Source of the DNA: Escherichia coli
Lineage (GTDB): Bacteria > Pseudomonadota > Gammaproteobacteria > Enterobacterales > Enterobacteriaceae
NCBI RefSeq assembly: GCF_003334335.1
Contig: NZ_QOWQ01000022.1
Direction: 5' to 3' (one strand)
Length of the DNA stretch: 64,000 bases
This document shows, in pieces, positions 1 through 64,000 of this stretch. A model generated the notes under the pieces. The model was not told the DNA's origin and searched no databases. It saw only the letters and a list, made by a program, of their open reading frames with translations. Position numbers and translations under genes: made by a program. The stretch's first letter is position 1, and the number at the start of each line of letters is the position of its first letter.

Positions 1-273
1 CAGTATGGCTATTTTGTTCTGCCGTTATTACATCGTGGGCAATTAGTTGGGCGAATGGATGCCAAAATGCATCGCCAGACAGGCATCCTTGAAGTTATCT
101 CTCTGTGGTTACAGGAAGGTATTAAACCAACGACAACGCTGCAAAAAGGGCTACGTCAGGCGATTACTGATTTCGCTAACTGGCAGCAGGCAACGCGGGT
201 GACATTAGGATGCTGCCCGCAAGGCCTCTTTACTGATTGCCGCACCGGCTGGGAAATAGACCCCGTCGTATAA
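1..273 (+). CDS. ycaQ: 3' part of ycaQ-like gene (winged-helix DNA-binding/crosslink repair glycosylase family); 5' end lies outside the window
   Basis: Frame 1 is open from base 1 to the stop at 273 (ORF track 55..273 is the M-initiated tail); position immediately upstream of ycaR-kdsB matches K-12 order. Confidence 0.6.
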   Translation, partial: QYGYFVLPLLHRGQLVGRMDAKMHRQTGILEVISLWLQEGIKPTTTLQKGLRQAITDFANWQQATRVTLGCCPQGLFTDCRTGWEIDPVV

Positions 274-324
274 ATGATTATGATAAGATTTATGCATTCA
301 TAACCCGATCCATCTGGAGGAACT

Positions 325-1250
<926 letters not shown>

Positions 1251-1403
1251 TTTCACTTCACGACACTTCAGCCAATTTTGGGAGGAGTGTCGTACCGTTA
1301 CGATTTTCCTCAATTTTTCTTTTCAACAATTGATCTCATTCAGGTGACATCTTTTATATTGGCGCTCATTATGAAAGCAGTAGCTTTTATGAGGGTAATC
1401 TGA

Positions 1404-2297
1404 ATGGAACAGCTGCGTGCCGAATTAAGCCATTTACTGGGCGAAAAACTCAGTCGTATTGAGTGCGTCAATGAAAAAGCGGATACGGCGTTGTGGGCTT
1501 TGTATGACAGCCAGGGAAACCCAATGCCGTTAATGGCAAGAAGCTTTAGTACGCCCGGAAAAGCCCGACAACTGGCATGGAAAACCACCATGCTGGCAAG
1601 AAGTGGGACTGTCCGTATGCCGACTATTTATGGTGTGATGACGCATGAAGAACACCCCGGCCCCGATGTCCTGCTACTGGAGCGGATGCGTGGTGTTTCG
1701 GTGGAGGCACCAGCCCGAACACCAGAACGCTGGGAACAACTCAAAGACCAAATCGTTGAAGCCTTACTGGCCTGGCACCGTCAGGACAGTCGCGGTTGCG
1801 TCGGCGCGGTCGACAATACTCAGGAAAATTTCTGGCCCTCATGGTACCGGCAACATGTTGAAGTGCTATGGACCACGCTCAATCAGTTCAATAACACCGG
1901 TCTGACGATGCAGGATAAGCGGATCCTGTTTCGCACTCGCGAATGTCTCCCGGCATTATTTGAAGGCTTTAACGACAATTGTGTGCTGATTCACGGTAAC
2001 TTCTGTTTACGCAGCATGTTGAAAGATTCGCGCAGCGATCAGTTACTGGCGATGGTCGGGCCGGGACTAATGCTTTGGGCACCGCGAGAATACGAACTGT
2101 TCCGACTAATGGATAATTCTCTGGCGGAAGATTTGCTCTGGAGTTACCTGCAACGCGCGCCAGTGGCGGAGTCGTTCATCTGGCGGCGTTGGTTGTATGT
2201 GTTATGGGATGAAGTTGCGCAACTGGTTAATACCGGACGATTTAGTCGGCGCAACTTCGATCTGGCATCAAAATCACTCTTGCCGTGGCTCGCCTGA
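1404..2297 (+). CDS. ycbJ: putative phosphotransferase/kinase-like protein YcbJ
   Basis: 297 aa ORF in conserved position between kdsB and elyC; 3' end overlaps convergent elyC. Confidence 0.85.
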   Translation: MEQLRAELSHLLGEKLSRIECVNEKADTALWALYDSQGNPMPLMARSFSTPGKARQLAWKTTMLARSGTVRMPTIYGVMTHEEHPGPDVLLLERMRGVSVEAPARTPERWEQLKDQIVEALLAWHRQDSRGCVGAVDNTQENFWPSWYRQHVEVLWTTLNQFNNTGLTMQDKRILFRTRECLPALFEGFNDNCVLIHGNFCLRSMLKDSRSDQLLAMVGPGLMLWAPREYELFRLMDNSLAEDLLWSYLQRAPVAESFIWRRWLYVLWDEVAQLVNTGRFSRRNFDLASKSLLPWLA

Positions 2298-3053
2298 CGA
2301 ACCTTTTAGCCACTGCCAGATACGGCCAAGCGTTTCATAGCCAACACGATCGCTATGCATCAACCAGACCGGAGAAGGGATTGCCCGTTCCCACGGGTTA
2401 AGCGGCGAGTCGATGGCCAACTGATTCGCCGGGGCTGGTAGCGGATTTAACCCTTCCTGCTGAAAAAAGATCATCGCCCGCGGCAGATGTGATGCGGAGG
2501 TCACCAGCAGGAAAGGGGCGTCACCAATCGCCTGTTTCACTGCTGCAGCTTCTTCTTCGGTATCTTTTGGCAAATCCAGGGTGATAATTTGCTCGCGCGG
2601 CACGCCCAGCGATTGCGCAACTCTGGCACCTACTTCCGCTGTACTCACCGTATTGGTTTTTGCTACGCCTCCCGTGAAGATCAGTTTTGATCCCGGATTT
2701 TCGCGCCATAAGCGAATACCTTCATTCAGGCGTGGCAGACTGTTATTGATTAAATTAGAGCTCGGTGCCCACTGCGGGTTCCAGGTATAACCACCTCCGA
2801 GCACCACGATATAGTCCACTTTTTGCGAATTATTCCATGTCGGATAGGTGCTTTCGATGGGACGCAGCAGGCGGTCGGCTACCGGTTGCAAACTCAATAA
2901 CAAGAGCGCCAGCCACCCAATGCTAATAAAAATCTTCCCGGTTTTTTGAAAACGGCTAAACCACAGCAGCGCCAGGCCAGCGCCAATAATCAACAACATC
3001 AGCGGAAGTGGCAGCAACATATTGCCAATCACTTTTTTCAGTGTAAAAAGCAT
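2274..3053 (-). CDS. elyC: envelope biogenesis factor ElyC (YcbC, DUF218 family)
   Basis: 259 aa ORF with N-terminal transmembrane segment; conserved position. Confidence 0.88.
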   Translation of the reverse strand: MLFTLKKVIGNMLLPLPLMLLIIGAGLALLWFSRFQKTGKIFISIGWLALLLLSLQPVADRLLRPIESTYPTWNNSQKVDYIVVLGGGYTWNPQWAPSSNLINNSLPRLNEGIRLWRENPGSKLIFTGGVAKTNTVSTAEVGARVAQSLGVPREQIITLDLPKDTEEEAAAVKQAIGDAPFLLVTSASHLPRAMIFFQQEGLNPLPAPANQLAIDSPLNPWERAIPSPVWLMHSDRVGYETLGRIWQWLKGSSGEPRQE

Positions 3054-3188
3054 CCTTTCTGGTTCCTTTTTTAACCATATAGCAAGGGATCGCCAGCGAT
3101 ATTACACCAGACGGGTTCATTCTCGCCGTGGCTGTGACAAAATAGCGTCTTTATCAGAAAACGTCTTAGCCAACCGGTGGAGAAAGCA

Positions 3189-3974
3189 ATGCAGGATCGC
3201 AATTTTGATGATATTGCGGAAAAGTTTTCCCGTAACATTTACGGCACCACCAAAGGGCAGCTTCGACAGGCTATTCTGTGGCAGGATCTCGATCGCGTGC
3301 TGGCGGAAATGGGCCCGCAAAAACTGCGTGTGCTGGATGCTGGCGGTGGAGAAGGGCAGACCGCAATCAAAATGGCCGAGCGTGGGCATCAGGTCATTTT
3401 ATGCGATCTTTCTGCGCAGATGATCGACCGCGCAAAACAGGCGGCAGAAGCAAAAGGTGTGAGCGACAACATGCAATTTATACATTGCGCCGCTCAGGAT
3501 GTTGCTTCGCATTTGGAAACGCCCGTTGATCTGATATTGTTCCATGCGGTGCTCGAGTGGGTGGCTGATCCCCGCAGCGTATTGCAGACCCTGTGGTCAG
3601 TGTTGCGTCCAGGCGGCGTGTTGTCGTTAATGTTCTACAATGCGCATGGTTTGTTGATGCATAACATGGTCGCCGGGAATTTTGATTACGTGCAGGCGGG
3701 AATGCCGAAAAAGAAAAAACGGACGCTTTCGCCAGATTATCCACGCGACCCGGCGCAGGTTTATCTGTGGCTGGAAGAAGCTGGTTGGCAAATTATGGGT
3801 AAGACAGGCGTTCGCGTGTTTCATGATTATCTGCGCGAGAAACACCAGCAGCGCGACTGCTATGAAGCATTACTTGAATTAGAAACGCGTTATTGCCGTC
3901 AGGAACCGTATATTACCCTGGGGCGTTATATTCATGTCACCGCGCGCAAACCGCAGAGCAAGGATAAAGTATGA
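3189..3974 (+). CDS. cmoM: SAM-dependent methyltransferase CmoM (formerly SmtA), tRNA cmo5U methyl ester formation
   Basis: ORF 3177..3974; start moved to second ATG (MQDRNFDD) to match known 261 aa protein; SAM motif LDAGGGEG; stop overlaps mukF start. Confidence 0.9.
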
Positions 3975-5293
3975 GTGAATTTTCCCAGACAGTCCCCGAA
4001 CTGGTTGCCTGGGCCAGAAAAAATGACTTCTCCATCTCGCTGCCGGTAGACCGACTCTCTTTTCTGCTGGCGGTTGCCACGCTGAACGGCGAGCGTCTGG
4101 ATGGTGAGATGAGTGAAGGCGAGCTGGTGGATGCATTCCGCCATGTGAGTGATGCGTTTGAGCAAACCAGCGAAACCATCGGCGTGCGCGCCAATAACGC
4201 GATCAACGACATGGTGCGTCAACGTCTGCTGAACCGCTTTACCAGCGAGCAGGCGGAAGGGAACGCAATTTACCGTCTGACGCCGCTCGGCATCGGCATT
4301 ACTGACTACTACATCCGTCAGCGCGAGTTTTCTACGCTGCGTCTTTCTATGCAGTTGTCGATTGTGGCGGGTGAGCTCAAACGCGCAGCAGATGCCGCCG
4401 AAGAGGGCGGTGATGAATTTCACTGGCACCGTAATGTCTATGCGCCACTGAAATATTCGGTAGCAGAAATTTTCGACAGTATCGACCTGACGCAACGTCT
4501 GATGGACGAACAGCAGCAGCAGGTGAAGGACGATATCGCCCAGTTGCTGAACAAAGACTGGCGGGCGGCGATTTCCAGCTGTGAATTGTTGCTTTCGGAA
4601 ACTTCCGGAACGCTGCGTGAATTGCAGGATACGCTGGAAGCGGCAGGCGACAAATTGCAGGCTAATCTGTTGCGCATTCAGGATGCGACGATGACCCATG
4701 ACGATCTGCATTTCGTCGATCGTCTGGTGTTCGATCTGCAGAGCAAACTCGATCGTATTATCAGTTGGGGCCAGCAATCCATCGACTTGTGGATTGGCTA
4801 CGACCGCCACGTACACAAATTTATTCGTACCGCGATCGATATGGATAAAAACCGCGTCTTTGCTCAGCGGTTACGTCAGTCGGTACAAACCTATTTTGAT
4901 GAGCCGTGGGCGCTAACTTATGCCAATGCCGATCGTCTGCTGGATATGCGTGACGAAGAGATGGCACTGCGCGATGAAGAAGTGACTGGGGAACTTCCTG
5001 AGGATCTGGAATACGAAGAGTTTAACGAGATCCGCGAACAGCTGGCGGCGATCATCGAAGAACAACTTGCCGTGTACAAAACCAGACAAGTGCCGCTGGA
5101 TCTTGGTCTGGTGGTACGCGAATATCTGTCACAGTATCCGCGTGCACGTCACTTTGACGTTGCGCGTATTGTTATTGATCAGGCGGTACGTCTTGGCGTA
5201 GCGCAAGCAGATTTCACCGGACTGCCAGCGAAATGGCAGCCGATTAATGATTACGGAGCCAAGGTACAGGCGCATGTCATCGACAAATATTGA
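3971..5293 (+). CDS. mukF: chromosome partition protein MukF (kleisin of MukBEF condensin)
   Basis: 440 aa ORF, recognised MukF sequence; operon with mukE/mukB. Confidence 0.96.
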
Positions 5294-60741: not shown

Positions 60742-60772
60742 AAAAAGGGGTTAGCATTTAGCTAACCCCTTA
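60742..60772 (-). terminator. rho-independent terminator immediately downstream of the serT remnant
   Basis: Minus strand AGGGGTTAGC-TAAAT-GCTAACCCCT followed by TTTTTC. Confidence 0.75.
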
Positions 60773-60779
60773 TCTTATT

Positions 60780-60839
60780 TGGCGGAAGCGCAGAGATTCG
60801 AACTCTGGAACCCTTTCGGGTCGCCGGTTTTCAAGACCG
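60780..60839 (-). tRNA. serT: truncated tRNA-Ser (serT) 3' segment, 60 nt from anticodon loop to CCA end; att core of the adjacent prophage
   Basis: Reverse complement of 60780-60839 matches the 3' 60 nt of the serT sequence as I recall it (...CTTGAAAACCGGCGACCCGAAAGGGTTCCAGAGTTCGAATCTCTGCGCTTCCGCCA); the 5' 28 nt are replaced by AT-rich DNA. Confidence 0.85.
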
Positions 60840-60980
60840 AAGAAAAACAAATGAAAATCAGTGTAATACGTGAATCTGCTGAAAATTTAATTAAATTTAA
60901 CACCAAGAAAAATCAAGGTGTTAGGAAGTTGCTCATAGCTAGTATACCAAGTATTTTTGCCAGAAAATTTTCTGTATTGC

Positions 60981-62000
60981 CTACTTGCTAACCACGAGCG
61001 GCAGATCCAGTGTTGGTGTGATTTTTGTTTTACGATCGTAAATCAACACCTGATTTTCTGTTTTATGCCCGCTGAAAATTTGTTTGTCGCGACTGCTGCC
61101 TTCGTAATCTGAGATCCCCTTGGCTTTTATGTCGTGAAAATTGCACCCGAACGGAACGCCAACTTTTTGCTCGGCTGAGCGTTTAGCCTGATTCCACCAG
61201 TTGTTCAGCGTTTTAGCTATGACTTTCCCGCCTTTGGTTGTATTGATCACATATTCGCATGTACAGGAAGATACATTTCGGGCTAACTGGATCGCTGTAC
61301 GTAATCGCGGTGACCATTCCTTGATTTGTTTGGTGCCGGTTTTGTTTTGCTCAATGTAGATCCCTTTATCCATAATATCCTGCCATTTCAACTCAAGCAC
61401 ATCACCGAGCCTTGCCGCACAGAGATAGGAAATCTCCATTGCAATGCGTAACTGTGGAATTGCTTCCGCATATATCGCTGCATACTGTTCATCGGTGATG
61501 TAAACAGTGCGGGCTTTAAGAGAGAATTTTCTGACTCCTTTACATGGGTTATTCTTCACGTATCCACGCTCATATCCCCACCCGTATACTCGACTCAGGC
61601 TTGCCAGTTCATGATTTGCCTGGGTCTTGCTCTCAAGCCCTCGTTTATCCATGAAAATTCTTACCTGCTCAGTTTTGACATTATCAGCAAGCACTTTTCC
61701 GAATACCATCAGCAACGCCTTCTGATGTTGTCGATAATCTTTTTGGGTTCGGGGGGCCAGTTCTGTAAATGCAGGGGAGTCCATAAACATGTGCCATAAT
61801 TTAGCTACGGTCATTATGTTGTGGAGTTTTGCTTTTTCCAGTTCATAATTTTGCCAGACTTTAGCTACGCTGGTTTTCCGCACTCTTCCTAGCCCTATAG
61901 TTCTTGTACTTCCTTCTGGTTTCCACACGTAACTGTAACCATTCGATCTAACCCGCGGTGGCAGTACATTATCTTTTTTATTTTTTCTTGGTCTTCCCAT
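60981..62000 (-). CDS. int: lambda-family tyrosine integrase
   Basis: 339 aa ORF; N-terminus MGRPRKNKKDNVLPPRVRSNGYSYVWKP resembles lambda Int arm-binding domain; C-terminus has GHKxxxxxxxY-DRK resembling lambda Int LGHKSDTMASQYRDDR. Confidence 0.9.
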   Translation of the reverse strand: MGRPRKNKKDNVLPPRVRSNGYSYVWKPEGSTRTIGLGRVRKTSVAKVWQNYELEKAKLHNIMTVAKLWHMFMDSPAFTELAPRTQKDYRQHQKALLMVFGKVLADNVKTEQVRIFMDKRGLESKTQANHELASLSRVYGWGYERGYVKNNPCKGVRKFSLKARTVYITDEQYAAIYAEAIPQLRIAMEISYLCAARLGDVLELKWQDIMDKGIYIEQNKTGTKQIKEWSPRLRTAIQLARNVSSCTCEYVINTTKGGKVIAKTLNNWWNQAKRSAEQKVGVPFGCNFHDIKAKGISDYEGSSRDKQIFSGHKTENQVLIYDRKTKITPTLDLPLVVSK

Positions 62001-62220
62001 TGTTCAGTGCCTCAAAATCGGGTTCAGCAGAAACCAGTTCAGATGTTTTTGGCATCGTTGTCAGTCCGTGTGGAATATCCCTGCGTAGAACTATTGGTTC
62101 GTTTTTAGGACCGATTACAAATGGGATGCCGTGCAGTCTTAACTGGTGTTGCTGTTTTGTGTATCGCTCGTATTTCGTGATCTCTTTAATCTCTGCTGGA
62201 GATAGAGTTAATTCGTACAT
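61978..62220 (-). CDS. xis: putative excisionase (Xis-like directionality factor)
   Basis: 80 aa ORF whose stop overlaps the int start by 23 nt, as lambda xis does; N-terminus MYELTL and basic C-terminus NGKTKKK resemble lambda Xis (MYLTL...NGKKAKS). Confidence 0.55.
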   Translation of the reverse strand: MYELTLSPAEIKEITKYERYTKQQHQLRLHGIPFVIGPKNEPIVLRRDIPHGLTTMPKTSELVSAEPDFEALNNGKTKKK

Positions 62221-62287
62221 GTGGTCACGTGCCTTTACAGCATGACCGCCGCCACTATAGCTGGTGGGCGGCGATATGGGTTGAACA

Positions 62288-64000
62288 TTAAAAATCAGCC
62301 TGACTCGGGATCAGTTTTTGCCAGATAGCTGAAACGTATTTTGCCTGATAACGGGCGTCATCAAGTGCATTATGGCGCTCACCTTCGAATGGGGTAGCAG
62401 TTCTGGCATCGAAGTCTATGGCTTTCCCCAGCTCAACGATTGTGCGTACATCGCGATCGTTGTAGTAACGCCACGGGCAGGGGATCCCCTGCCGTTCGTA
62501 TGAACGGCGCAAAATCGTGTTGTCGAAGTTGGCTCCATTTCCCCAAACCTGAACAAAAAATTCACCGGAGTTTTCGTCGATAAATTCCCGCAATTGTAAC
62601 AGTGCATCATCTAACGGGATTTCATCGGTCATAATGGCAGATTGCGCTTCGCGTGATTGCTTAAGCCACCATTTAATGGTGTCCCGATCAATGACTCCGC
62701 CAGCAGTTTCCAGATCGATAGTCTTACTAAATTCCGGTCCCATATCTCCGGTTTGCGGATCGAAAAATATTGCACCTATTGAGATGATCGGGGCATCAGG
62801 ATTTTTTCCCATGGTTTCAAGGTCGATCATTAGATGGTCACACGTCCTGCTGGTGGATGTGATTTCGTGATGACCGTTCACCTTAATTGGGTGATCTGCC
62901 GTCTCGCCAGTTTCATTATCGCTATTGTGATGCTGATTGCCGCCAGTGTTCTCCTTGTGTGGATGTTCAGCGCCTTCCATTTCCTCCGGATCATCTTCCT
63001 GAACTTCAGGCTGATACTCTTCATCGAATGTTTCCTGGTATGTTGCGTCGCCCATTACCGCGCCACAATCAGGGCAGTTGCCGCCGGTCTGACCGCAGGC
63101 GGTGCAGACTTTTTCCACTTCCTGTTGCGCCACTGATTCAGGCTGTTTCGTTTCTGGCTCGTTTTGTAACGCATTTGGGCTGTTTTGTTCCGCTTTCTGG
63201 TCGTTCTGTTCCGTTTCTTGCTGGTTCTGGTTCACAGAATCGCGGGTCTGGTTCCCCTTAACCCATTTCGGATCATTCGGGTCGCTAATCCCTTCAACAA
63301 ATTCACCACGTGATACTGCAAGCAGTTCATCGGCGTCAGGCTGGCTGATATTGGCTGCCTGCATAATTTTGTTTACTTCGTCAGCGGTAACTTTTACTGA
63401 CCCTGGTTGTGCGGTCGTGTCAGATGCACCAGTATTTTGTTGTGAACCTGAGTATGTACCGTTTTTGCGGGCGAAATATTCTTCTTTCGTGATTTCAGTA
63501 GCCCCAGCAGACAGCGCCTTATCCAGACCAGAAAGTTTGTTTGCGCGACCGTATTTTTCGCCATCCTTGTCGGTGAAGAGGAAGTAGAACGGCCCCTCAC
63601 GTTCTACAGATGGTTCGACTTCCACTTTGCATTCGGTTTTTTCGTTGTCTGGAATTGCCGTTTCCACTGCATCAGTTTCTGGTACTGGCGACGAGAGAGT
63701 ATCAGTTGCGCTCTGATTTGTTCCTTCATCTTCAAACACGCCCTTTGTAGTCAGGTATTCAGTAATGTATTTGTTCAGTGCCACAGGGTCTTTGTGAATG
63801 TCGATCGGACGTTCACGGACAAGGCCAAAAATAGTCTGGCGGTCGTAGCGAAGGGCATCAGGCTGTTTGCGCATTGATGCCGAGATACGCTTCCAGTCTT
63901 CGCGGTCGTTGTCGATAACTTCTTTTTTTGCCCAGCGATGGATGCTGCCGTCAATGTTTCCGGCATCCACATCACCAGGCCAGAGAGCGTAGGCCAGTTC
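62288..64000 (-). CDS. phage exonuclease, partial (N-terminus beyond window): acidic/Gln-rich linker, CxxC-x7-CxxC zinc-ribbon motif and C-terminal DEDDh-type 3'-5' exonuclease domain
   Basis: Reading frame is open to the window edge; C-terminal motifs MIDLETMG, WGNGANFD and HNALDDARYQ are the DnaQ-like DEDDh triad; Cys cluster CTACGQTGGNCPDC. Confidence 0.75.
   Translation of the reverse strand, partial: ELAYALWPGDVDAGNIDGSIHRWAKKEVIDNDREDWKRISASMRKQPDALRYDRQTIFGLVRERPIDIHKDPVALNKYITEYLTTKGVFEDEGTNQSATDTLSSPVPETDAVETAIPDNEKTECKVEVEPSVEREGPFYFLFTDKDGEKYGRANKLSGLDKALSAGATEITKEEYFARKNGTYSGSQQNTGASDTTAQPGSVKVTADEVNKIMQAANISQPDADELLAVSRGEFVEGISDPNDPKWVKGNQTRDSVNQNQQETEQNDQKAEQNSPNALQNEPETKQPESVAQQEVEKVCTACGQTGGNCPDCGAVMGDATYQETFDEEYQPEVQEDDPEEMEGAEHPHKENTGGNQHHNSDNETGETADHPIKVNGHHEITSTSRTCDHLMIDLETMGKNPDAPIISIGAIFFDPQTGDMGPEFSKTIDLETAGGVIDRDTIKWWLKQSREAQSAIMTDEIPLDDALLQLREFIDENSGEFFVQVWGNGANFDNTILRRSYERQGIPCPWRYYNDRDVRTIVELGKAIDFDARTATPFEGERHNALDDARYQAKYVSAIWQKLIPSQADF

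What the first reader, a model, noticed from the sequence alone, without database searches (positions are those of the whole stretch)
61978..62220. Small ORF overlapping the integrase start is a likely excisionase
An 80-codon ORF on the integrase strand ends 23 nt inside the int start, the same arrangement as lambda xis-int. Its N-terminus (MYELTL) and basic C-terminus (NGKTKKK) echo lambda Xis (MYLTL…NGKKAKS). The middle of the protein is not recognisably similar, so it may be a divergent directionality factor.
Basis: partly seen in the sequence, partly recalled or inferred. Interest (0 to 1): 0.3.

Follow-up and report, generated by a model that had tools for sequence, protein, structure and literature searches.

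The report
Prophage excisionase gene next to integrase
The small gene overlapping the integrase start is a real, conserved prophage gene, already annotated as "phage excisionase" or DUF4224, and most likely helps the integrase cut the prophage out of the chromosome, so the finding is correct but ordinary.

Summary
The ORF at 61978-62220 (minus strand, 80 codons) exists and overlaps the integrase start by 23 nt. Its product is 100% identical to ECs_1056, annotated "phage excisionase", of prophage Sp4 at serT in E. coli O157:H7 Sakai. RefSeq calls the same CDS "DUF4224 domain-containing protein".

It hits Pfam DUF4224 (E=1.2e-8) and PHROG 1266 "excisionase" (E=1.9e-23). It is under purifying selection (dN/dS 0.12-0.48). 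In 6 of 6 distant relatives examined, the gene lies directly upstream of a co-oriented tyrosine integrase.

It is not a detectable homologue of lambda Xis (no BLASTP alignment; hhalign probability 0.3%). The C-terminal "NGK...K" echo is a by-product of the lambda-like Int N-terminus (MGR...) read in the other frame.

Sp4, which encodes this exact protein, excises precisely at this att core. No one has tested whether the protein is required.

Verdict: very probably a recombination directionality factor, and already known.

The parts
61978..62220 (-). 80-codon gene for a DUF4224-family protein (9.2 kDa, pI 9.3). It is the candidate excisionase / recombination directionality factor.
   Evidence: ORF. 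Pfam DUF4224 E=1.2e-8. PHROG 1266 'excisionase' E=1.9e-23. RefSeq CDS WP_000273151.1. 100% identical to Sakai ECs_1056 'phage excisionase'. dN/dS 0.12-0.48. pI.
62071..62220 (-). Codons 1-50: predicted winged-helix DNA-binding domain, with a strand at residue 5, helices 8-15 and 20-30, a GIPF loop, and a two-strand wing at 34-36/42-45.
62005..62025 (-). Codons 66-72, EPDFEAL: a family-conserved C-terminal motif in an otherwise variable, low-confidence tail. Inferred to be the partner (Int) docking element.
   Evidence: Alignment A4 of 38 sequences down to 25% identity. Short helix at 70-73 in a tail of pLDDT 56-64. The docking role is inference only.
61978..62000 (-). The 23-nt overlap between the end of the ORF and the start of int. 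The tail NGKTKKK is read from the same bases as Int MGRPRKNK.
   Evidence: Lambda has the same geometry.
60981..62000 (-). Tyrosine integrase, a full-length homologue of lambda Int including the N-terminal arm-binding region.
   Evidence: BLASTP against lambda Int: 25% identity over residues 1-321, E=2e-26. PHROG integrase families. 99% identical to Sakai ECs_1055.
60775..60839 (.). attL core. This 65-bp block is identical at both prophage ends. It consists of TTATT plus the 3' 60 nt of serT (60780-60839), and it ends in the anticodon stem-loop.
   Evidence: Alignment with the attR end of the same prophage in NZ_AP022815.1. ARAGORN finds no intact tRNA here. The same core was determined experimentally for Sp4 attL/attP/attR (Fig S5 of PMC2669165).
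60840..60980 (.). Int-proximal phage arm, analogous to lambda P'. It contains an exact IHF consensus (60911-60923, AATCAAGGTGTTA) and a 13-mer, TAGTATACCAAGT (60940-60952), that recurs in the far arm.
   Evidence: Conservation among four alleles. These are consensus or repeat matches only; binding was not tested.
62221..62287 (-). Leader between the exonuclease stop and the ORF start. It holds an SD-like AAGG (62232-62235) and two predicted hairpins (62248-62272 and 62223-62247).
   Evidence: z = -1.85, not significant; conserved among alleles. No promoter-like or terminator-like site here.

Best explanation
The ORF encodes the recombination directionality factor (excisionase) of an Sp4-like lambdoid prophage integrated in serT.

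Shown: it is a conserved, selected protein of the DUF4224 family. Members of that family sit immediately upstream of tyrosine integrase genes in mobile elements of many proteobacteria. It has a confidently predicted strand-helix-helix-wing domain followed by a flexible tail.

Inferred mechanism, by analogy with lambda Xis, TorI, Pukovnik Xis and BldC:
- After induction it is co-transcribed with int from the early leftward operon.
- The winged-helix domain binds phased direct repeats in one att arm, probably the int-distal arm at attR, and bends the DNA.
- The C-terminal tail (the EPDFxAL motif plus a basic end) contacts the lambda-like N-terminal arm-binding domain of Int.
- Together with IHF this assembles the excisive intasome on attL x attR and disfavours attP x attB integration.

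The protein belongs to the MerR/excisionase winged-helix fold class. It is not a sequence-detectable member of the lambda Xis family.
For: - Family hits: PHROG 1266/8896/4764, all annotated 'excisionase' (E=1.9e-23, 3.4e-8, 1.3e-5). Ten distant relatives hit only these three families. Pfam DUF4224 matches 38 of 38 relatives, one of which also hits HTH_17 at 9.8e-5.
- Existing annotation: the identical protein is annotated 'phage excisionase' in Sakai Sp4. Relatives are annotated excisionase in Burkholderia phage KL3, Pseudomonas phages F10 and LESphi2, and a Mannheimia phage.
- Synteny: in 6 of 6 distant members (25-40% identity) the gene lies directly upstream of a co-oriented integrase, from a 26-nt overlap to a 9-nt gap.
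- Selection: dN/dS 0.12-0.48.
- Partner: Int is lambda-like, including its arm-binding N-terminus, so an RDF is expected. attP has repeated arm-type sites (29 repeat pairs against 9.8 +/- 5.1 in shuffles) and IHF consensus sites.
- In vivo: Sp4, which encodes this exact protein, excises precisely at this core after mitomycin C (PMC2669165).
Against: - No experiment links any DUF4224 protein to excision. No paper on DUF4224 or PF13986 function was found.
- Asadulghani et al. 2009 judged the Sp4 putative Xis to 'lack DNA binding motifs' and to be probably non-functional. They proposed that Int alone excises Sp4, and they saw no spontaneous Sp4 excision.
- No similarity to lambda Xis was detected, and there is no NCBIfam hit.
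- The SD is weak.
- The window allele lacks the last three residues (QKR) found in other alleles.
- The repeats found in the att arms occur in both arms, so they could all be Int arm sites rather than RDF sites.
Confidence: 0.75

Rival explanations
1. The ORF is a decayed, non-functional excisionase remnant, and the integrase alone (with host factors and regional replication) excises the prophage. This is the reading published for Sakai Sp4.
For: PMC2669165 says the protein lacks DNA-binding motifs and that Sp4 excision was seen only after mitomycin C, not spontaneously. The window/Sakai allele carries a premature stop relative to the 83-aa alleles. The SD is weak.
Against: The full-length family architecture is intact and aligns end to end with distant relatives. 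A winged-helix domain is predicted with confidence. dN/dS is 0.12-0.48. The 80-aa sequence is present on at least 1000 contigs. Lambda-type Ints with arm-binding domains normally cannot run attL x attR efficiently without an RDF (established knowledge of lambda). The truncation removes only QKR, downstream of the conserved EPDFxAL motif.
Confidence: 0.08
2. The protein is mainly a small winged-helix transcriptional regulator of the prophage, in the manner of AlpA, Cox, Apl or BldC, for example controlling int or early promoters. It is not an architectural excision factor, or it does both jobs.
For: The best structural match is BldC, a transcription regulator. AlpA-family and Cox/Apl-type RDFs are known to double as regulators (PMC7498355 abstract). 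The arm repeats could belong to Int alone.
Against: Strict positional coupling to the integrase gene persists across distant taxa, including a filamentous prophage that shares no other genes. The three matching PHROGs are in the integration/excision category. The conserved C-terminal motif outside the DNA-binding domain suggests a protein partner.
Confidence: 0.12
3. The ORF is a chance open frame or merely a translated leader that couples ribosomes into int, and its protein product has no function.
For: Many 30-100-codon ORFs occur by chance in this region, including a 95-codon antisense ORF over the same DNA. The stop lies inside int, which would allow translational coupling.
Against: HMM hits reach E=1.9e-23. 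The protein family is conserved down to 25% identity in other genera. Third-position substitutions are in excess and dN/dS is below 0.5. In distant members the gene does not overlap int at all, yet the protein is conserved.
Confidence: 0.02

Closest known systems
ECs_1056, 'phage excisionase' of prophage Sp4 (serT) in E. coli O157:H7 Sakai; RefSeq WP_000273151.1 'DUF4224 domain-containing protein'
   Same: The protein is 100% identical. The neighbours are the same (yccA, serT fragment, int, this ORF, exonuclease), the 23-nt overlap is the same and the att core is the same.
   Different: Nothing at the protein level. The window's Int differs from Sakai's at 2 of 339 residues.
Lambda Xis (Pfam PF07825, Exc)
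   Same: Both are small basic proteins encoded immediately upstream of a lambda-type int and ending inside it. The int ATG lies in the same AAT GGG AAG codons. Both have a strand, two helices, a Pro-containing loop and a wing, followed by a flexible C-terminal tail (the lambda Xis structure is from established knowledge). hhalign's only alignment puts LRLHGIPFVIGPKNEPIVLR against RECRIFPPPVKDGREYLFH, which are the equivalent elements.
MerR-like / HTH_17 / AlpA-type excisionases (Pukovnik Xis 4J2N, GIsul2 excisionase 8C3T, TorI 1Z4H) and BldC (6AMK)
   Different: It is a separate Pfam family, DUF4224. Scores are too low to prove homology. BldC is a developmental regulator that is not linked to an integrase.
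Gifsy-1 Xis (Salmonella), characterised experimentally
   Same: It is an RDF of an enterobacterial lambdoid prophage, with HTH, proline-loop and beta-sheet elements, and it binds three imperfect direct repeats in attP (PMC2603039).
   Different: It is 94 residues long with an FPPP loop.

Membership tests
Pfam DUF4224 (PF13986) | Match to the family HMM over the roughly 45-residue domain | tested here: met
   E=1.2e-8, residues 5-48 against model positions 1-44 of 45. 38 of 38 collected relatives match. RefSeq uses this name.
PHROG 1266 / 8896 / 4764 ('excisionase', integration and excision) | Match to the family profile over most of its length | tested here: met
   phrog_1266 E=1.9e-23, residues 1-74 against profile positions 3-77 of 77. 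The family label is an annotation, not a tested function.
Recombination directionality factors (functional class) | Small basic protein encoded next to, and co-oriented with, the cognate integrase at the edge of the element | tested here: met
   80 aa, pI 9.3. Overlaps int by 23 nt. The same linkage holds in 6 of 6 distant relatives.
Recombination directionality factors (functional class) | Winged-helix / HTH DNA-binding domain of the excisionase-MerR type | tested here: inconclusive
Recombination directionality factors (functional class) | Phased direct-repeat binding sites in one att arm | tested here: inconclusive
   Repeats of the T(A/G)TACCWAGT type at 11-12-bp phasing occur in the int-distal arm (L003:1579-1612). 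One copy lies in the window arm at about 60940-60953. They may be Int arm sites, and no binding data exist.
Recombination directionality factors (functional class) | Stimulates excision and inhibits integration by the cognate integrase | not testable with these tools
   Only indirect evidence is available: Sp4, which encodes the identical protein, excises precisely after mitomycin C.
Lambda Xis family (Pfam PF07825, Exc) | Sequence or profile similarity to lambda Xis | tested here: not met
   BLASTP gives no alignment with E<=100. hhalign of a 38-sequence profile against a 20-sequence profile gives probability 0.3%. No Exc hit in Pfam.
Lambda Xis family (Pfam PF07825, Exc) | xis stop codon inside a lambda-type int, with a C-terminal tail that recruits Int | tested here: inconclusive
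   The overlap geometry is the same and Int is a lambda Int homologue. Tail-Int contact was not testable, and the tail similarity is forced by the int reading frame.

The most novel reading that the evidence does not exclude
DUF4224 is a distinct and so far uncharacterised lineage of recombination directionality factors.

- Its conserved C-terminal EPDFxAL motif would be a new integrase-docking peptide.
- In lambda-type int modules it would have replaced a lambda-type Xis while the overlapping xis-int junction was kept.
- The excision of Sakai prophages Sp4 and Sp14, published as 'integrase alone', would then actually depend on this protein.
Probability: 0.35. Interest if true: 0.35.

Novelty: already known. 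Interest (0 to 1): 0.15.

Why it matters
There is little new here. The gene is annotated in thousands of E. coli genomes, and phage databases already label its family as excisionases.

The one useful point is a correction. The Sakai prophage study dismissed this very protein as lacking a DNA-binding motif and concluded that integrase alone excises Sp4. The predicted winged-helix fold, the purifying selection and the family-wide linkage to integrases argue that it is a functional directionality factor.

Sp4-type prophages at serT occur in about 14% of complete E. coli genomes (745 of 5426), including EHEC O157, O26 and O111. Whether they can leave the chromosome therefore bears on prophage mobility in pathogens. 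DUF4224 also still lacks any experimental characterisation.

Tried and rejected
- Direct homology to lambda Xis is not supported. BLASTP gave no alignment. Profile-profile hhalign of DUF4224 against a lambda Xis alignment gave probability 0.3%.
- Sequence searches of the PDB with the protein and with its profile found nothing significant.
- NCBIfam gave no hit.
- I looked for a lambda pI-type CII site (TTGCN6TTGC) inside the ORF and found none.
- The promoter/terminator scan around the ORF was uninformative.
It holds only AT-rich 10-bp repeats, one 13-mer shared with the other arm and an IHF consensus. By lambda analogy this is the wrong arm.
- Literature searches for DUF4224, PF13986 and serT excisionase found no functional study.
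- The exact coincidence of the 23-nt overlap with lambda is rejected as evidence, because other alleles overlap by 32 nt.

Full report
**Observation**

The window's right end is the E. coli chromosome segment rlmI-yccX-tusE-yccA, followed by a prophage. On the minus strand there is a 339-codon integrase ORF at 60981..62000. An 80-codon ORF at 61978..62220 has an ATG start and a TAA stop and overlaps the integrase by 23 nt. Upstream of it lies an exonuclease gene that runs off the window end.

Lambda xis/int also overlap by 23 nt. In both phages the int ATG is embedded in the xis codons AAT GGG AAG. The exact number is allele-specific, however. Three diverged E. coli alleles are 83 aa with a 32-nt overlap. 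The window allele has TAA where they have CAA, a change that is synonymous in int.

ORF length alone is not remarkable here, because a 95-codon antisense ORF covers the same DNA. Other evidence shows the ORF is a real gene:
- Among four alleles, dN/dS over codons 1-72 is 0.12-0.48, with an excess of third-position changes.
- The protein aligns end to end with relatives down to about 25% identity in Erwinia, Citrobacter, Pseudomonas, Pandoraea and metagenomes.

**What it is**

- Pfam places residues 5-48 in DUF4224 (E=1.2e-8).
- PHROGs gives three families, all labelled "excisionase", the best at E=1.9e-23 over the whole protein. Ten distant relatives hit only these three families.
- NCBIfam has no model for it.
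- RefSeq annotates exactly this CDS as "DUF4224 domain-containing protein".
- In E. coli O157:H7 Sakai the 100% identical protein is ECs_1056, "phage excisionase", in prophage Sp4. It sits next to ECs_1055, an integrase 99% identical to the window's.
- The int-ORF region is present at >=80% coverage in 745 of 5426 complete E. coli genomes. The exact protein occurs on at least 1000 contigs.

**Context**

The prophage is integrated in serT. The window keeps only the 3' 60 nt of the tRNA gene (60780-60839), and ARAGORN finds no tRNA there. In a genome with a 100% identical junction (NZ_AP022815.1), the intact tRNA-Ser lies about 50 kb away at the other end of a complete lambdoid prophage.

The two ends share a 65-bp identical core, window 60775-60839. 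It ends in the anticodon stem-loop. The same core was sequenced experimentally for Sp4 attL, attR and the excised attP (Fig S5 of PMC2669165).

The integrase is a full-length homologue of lambda Int, 25% identical at E=2e-26, and this includes the N-terminal arm-binding region. A directionality factor is therefore expected.

The reconstructed attP is enriched in short direct repeats: 29 pairs against 9.8 +/- 5.1 in shuffles.
- Four T(A/G)TACCWAGT-like sites lie in the int-distal arm, three of them at 11-12-bp phasing.
- One 13-mer, TAGTATACCAAGT, is identical in both arms (window 60940-60952).
- Exact IHF consensus sites are present in both arms (window 60911-60923).

The window arm thus resembles lambda's P' arm (core, H', arm sites). 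By that analogy any Xis sites would lie in the other arm, outside the window.

**Family-level evidence for function**

I looked up six distant DUF4224 members, which share 25-40% identity with the ORF. In all six the gene lies immediately upstream of a co-oriented tyrosine integrase, between a 26-nt overlap and a 9-nt gap, at the edge of a mobile element. For the sixth, the integrase identity was confirmed by BLASTP.

The elements are otherwise unrelated. One is a filamentous (Zot/secretin/Rep) prophage in Pandoraea.

Relatives in phage isolates are annotated as excisionases: Burkholderia KL3 gp2, Pseudomonas F10 and LESphi2, and Mannheimia 1152AP2. These are annotations only. I found no paper testing a DUF4224 protein.

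**Structure**

With a 38-sequence alignment, AlphaFold2 gives a confident N-terminal domain with pLDDT of about 83-93 for residues 1-50. It consists of a short strand at residue 5, helices 8-15 and 20-30, a GIPF loop and a two-strand wing at 34-36/42-45.

The tail has low confidence, with one helical turn over the conserved EPDFEAL motif.

- Its other whole-domain matches are GIsul2 excisionase (3.0), Pukovnik Xis (2.9), Mu repressor (2.7), pSK1 Par, CbpM, TorI (2.3) and a small terminase. All are MerR/excisionase-type winged helices.
- Partial matches to unrelated large proteins score about the same.
- Foldseek agrees (BldC, GlnR, gpNu1, CarH, Pukovnik Xis), but E >= 0.8.
- One of the 38 relatives also matches Pfam HTH_17 at 9.8e-5.

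The fold assignment is therefore consistent and plausible, but not statistically decisive.

**Relation to lambda Xis**

There is no BLASTP alignment. hhalign between the two family profiles gives 0.3% probability. Its single alignment nevertheless pairs the structurally equivalent segments, the end of helix 2 with the Pro loop and the wing.

It is explained by the overlapping frame: those bases also encode the conserved Int N-terminus, MGRPRK against MGRRRS. DUF4224 members that do not overlap int end soon after EPDFxAL.

The N-terminal hydrophobic-L-T/S-L pattern before helix 1 is near-invariant in the family only at L6. It is the first strand of this fold class rather than a lambda-specific signature; that last point is inference.

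**Mechanism**

The inferred mechanism has four steps:
1. The gene is co-transcribed with int from the early leftward operon. No promoter-like site or lambda-type CII site lies in or near the ORF.
2. The winged helix binds phased repeats in an att arm and bends the DNA.
3. The tail contacts the Int N-domain.
4. With IHF, this drives attL x attR recombination.

Indirect in-vivo support comes from Sakai Sp4, which encodes the identical protein. It forms the precise circular attP junction after mitomycin C.

The authors of that study stated that the Sp4 and Sp14 putative Xis proteins "lack DNA binding motifs ... and are probably non-functional", and that integrases alone appear capable of excision. 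The present data contradict the first statement (confident winged-helix model, selection, synteny). That makes the second conclusion unnecessary, but nobody has deleted the gene.

**Caveats**

- The SD is weak: AAGG lies 11 nt from the ATG. It sits in a predicted hairpin whose stability is not significant (z = -1.85). The leader is conserved among alleles.
- The window/Sakai allele lacks the terminal QKR.

**Verdict**

The specific lambda Xis homology hints are largely an overlap artefact. The feature is already annotated and is ordinary.

Noticed in passing
window 60745-60839; L003:1620-1742: Only the 3' 60 nt of serT (60780-60839) remain at this prophage end, and ARAGORN finds no tRNA. The intact gene is rebuilt at the far end of the prophage. 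The phage-borne copy carries its own version of the downstream terminator hairpin, with several differences from the chromosomal one (AAGGGGTTAGCATTTAGCTAACCCCTT against AAGGGGCTACCATTTGGTAACCCCTT).
   Followed up: yes
window 60911-60923 and 60940-60952; L003:1554-1612 and 1639-1651: There are exact IHF consensus matches in both att arms. A 13-mer, TAGTATACCAAGT, is shared by both arms. The far arm holds a cluster of four related sites, three at 11-12-bp phasing. These could be Int arm-type sites or RDF sites.
   Followed up: partly
window 61978-61980 (codon 81 of the ORF): The ORF has a length polymorphism. The window and O157 Sakai carry TAA (80 aa, 23-nt overlap), whereas three diverged alleles carry CAA (83 aa ending QKR, 32-nt overlap). 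The change is synonymous in int (AAT/AAC, Asn).
   Followed up: yes
window 62223-62272 (minus strand): Two adjacent predicted RNA hairpins lie between the exonuclease stop and the ORF start. The second encloses the only SD-like AAGG. The leader is nearly invariant among alleles at about 90% identity, but the folding energy is not significant (z = -1.85).
   Followed up: partly
window 61958-62245 (plus strand): A 95-codon GTG-started ORF lies antisense to the excisionase gene. It is most likely a shadow ORF; it was not searched against any family library, and RefSeq annotates no gene there.
   Followed up: no
window 62288-64000 (minus strand): The exonuclease gene (Exo VIII-like N-terminal part plus a DnaQ-like 3'-5' exonuclease C-terminal part) is cut by the window end. 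RefSeq annotates 2472 nt. The listed 560-codon GTG-started ORF matches only positions 263-823 of PHROG 2082.
   Followed up: partly
L007 (Pandoraea sputorum LT906435.1), 1-4314: A DUF4224 gene plus integrase sits at the end of a filamentous-phage-like module (Zot, secretin, Rep). This family of putative excisionases is therefore not confined to tailed prophages.
   Followed up: no
protein clusters P0018, P0035, P0151: Some NCBI records name fragments or relatives of this protein 'histone-lysine N-methyltransferase'. This looks like a spurious propagated annotation.
   Followed up: no
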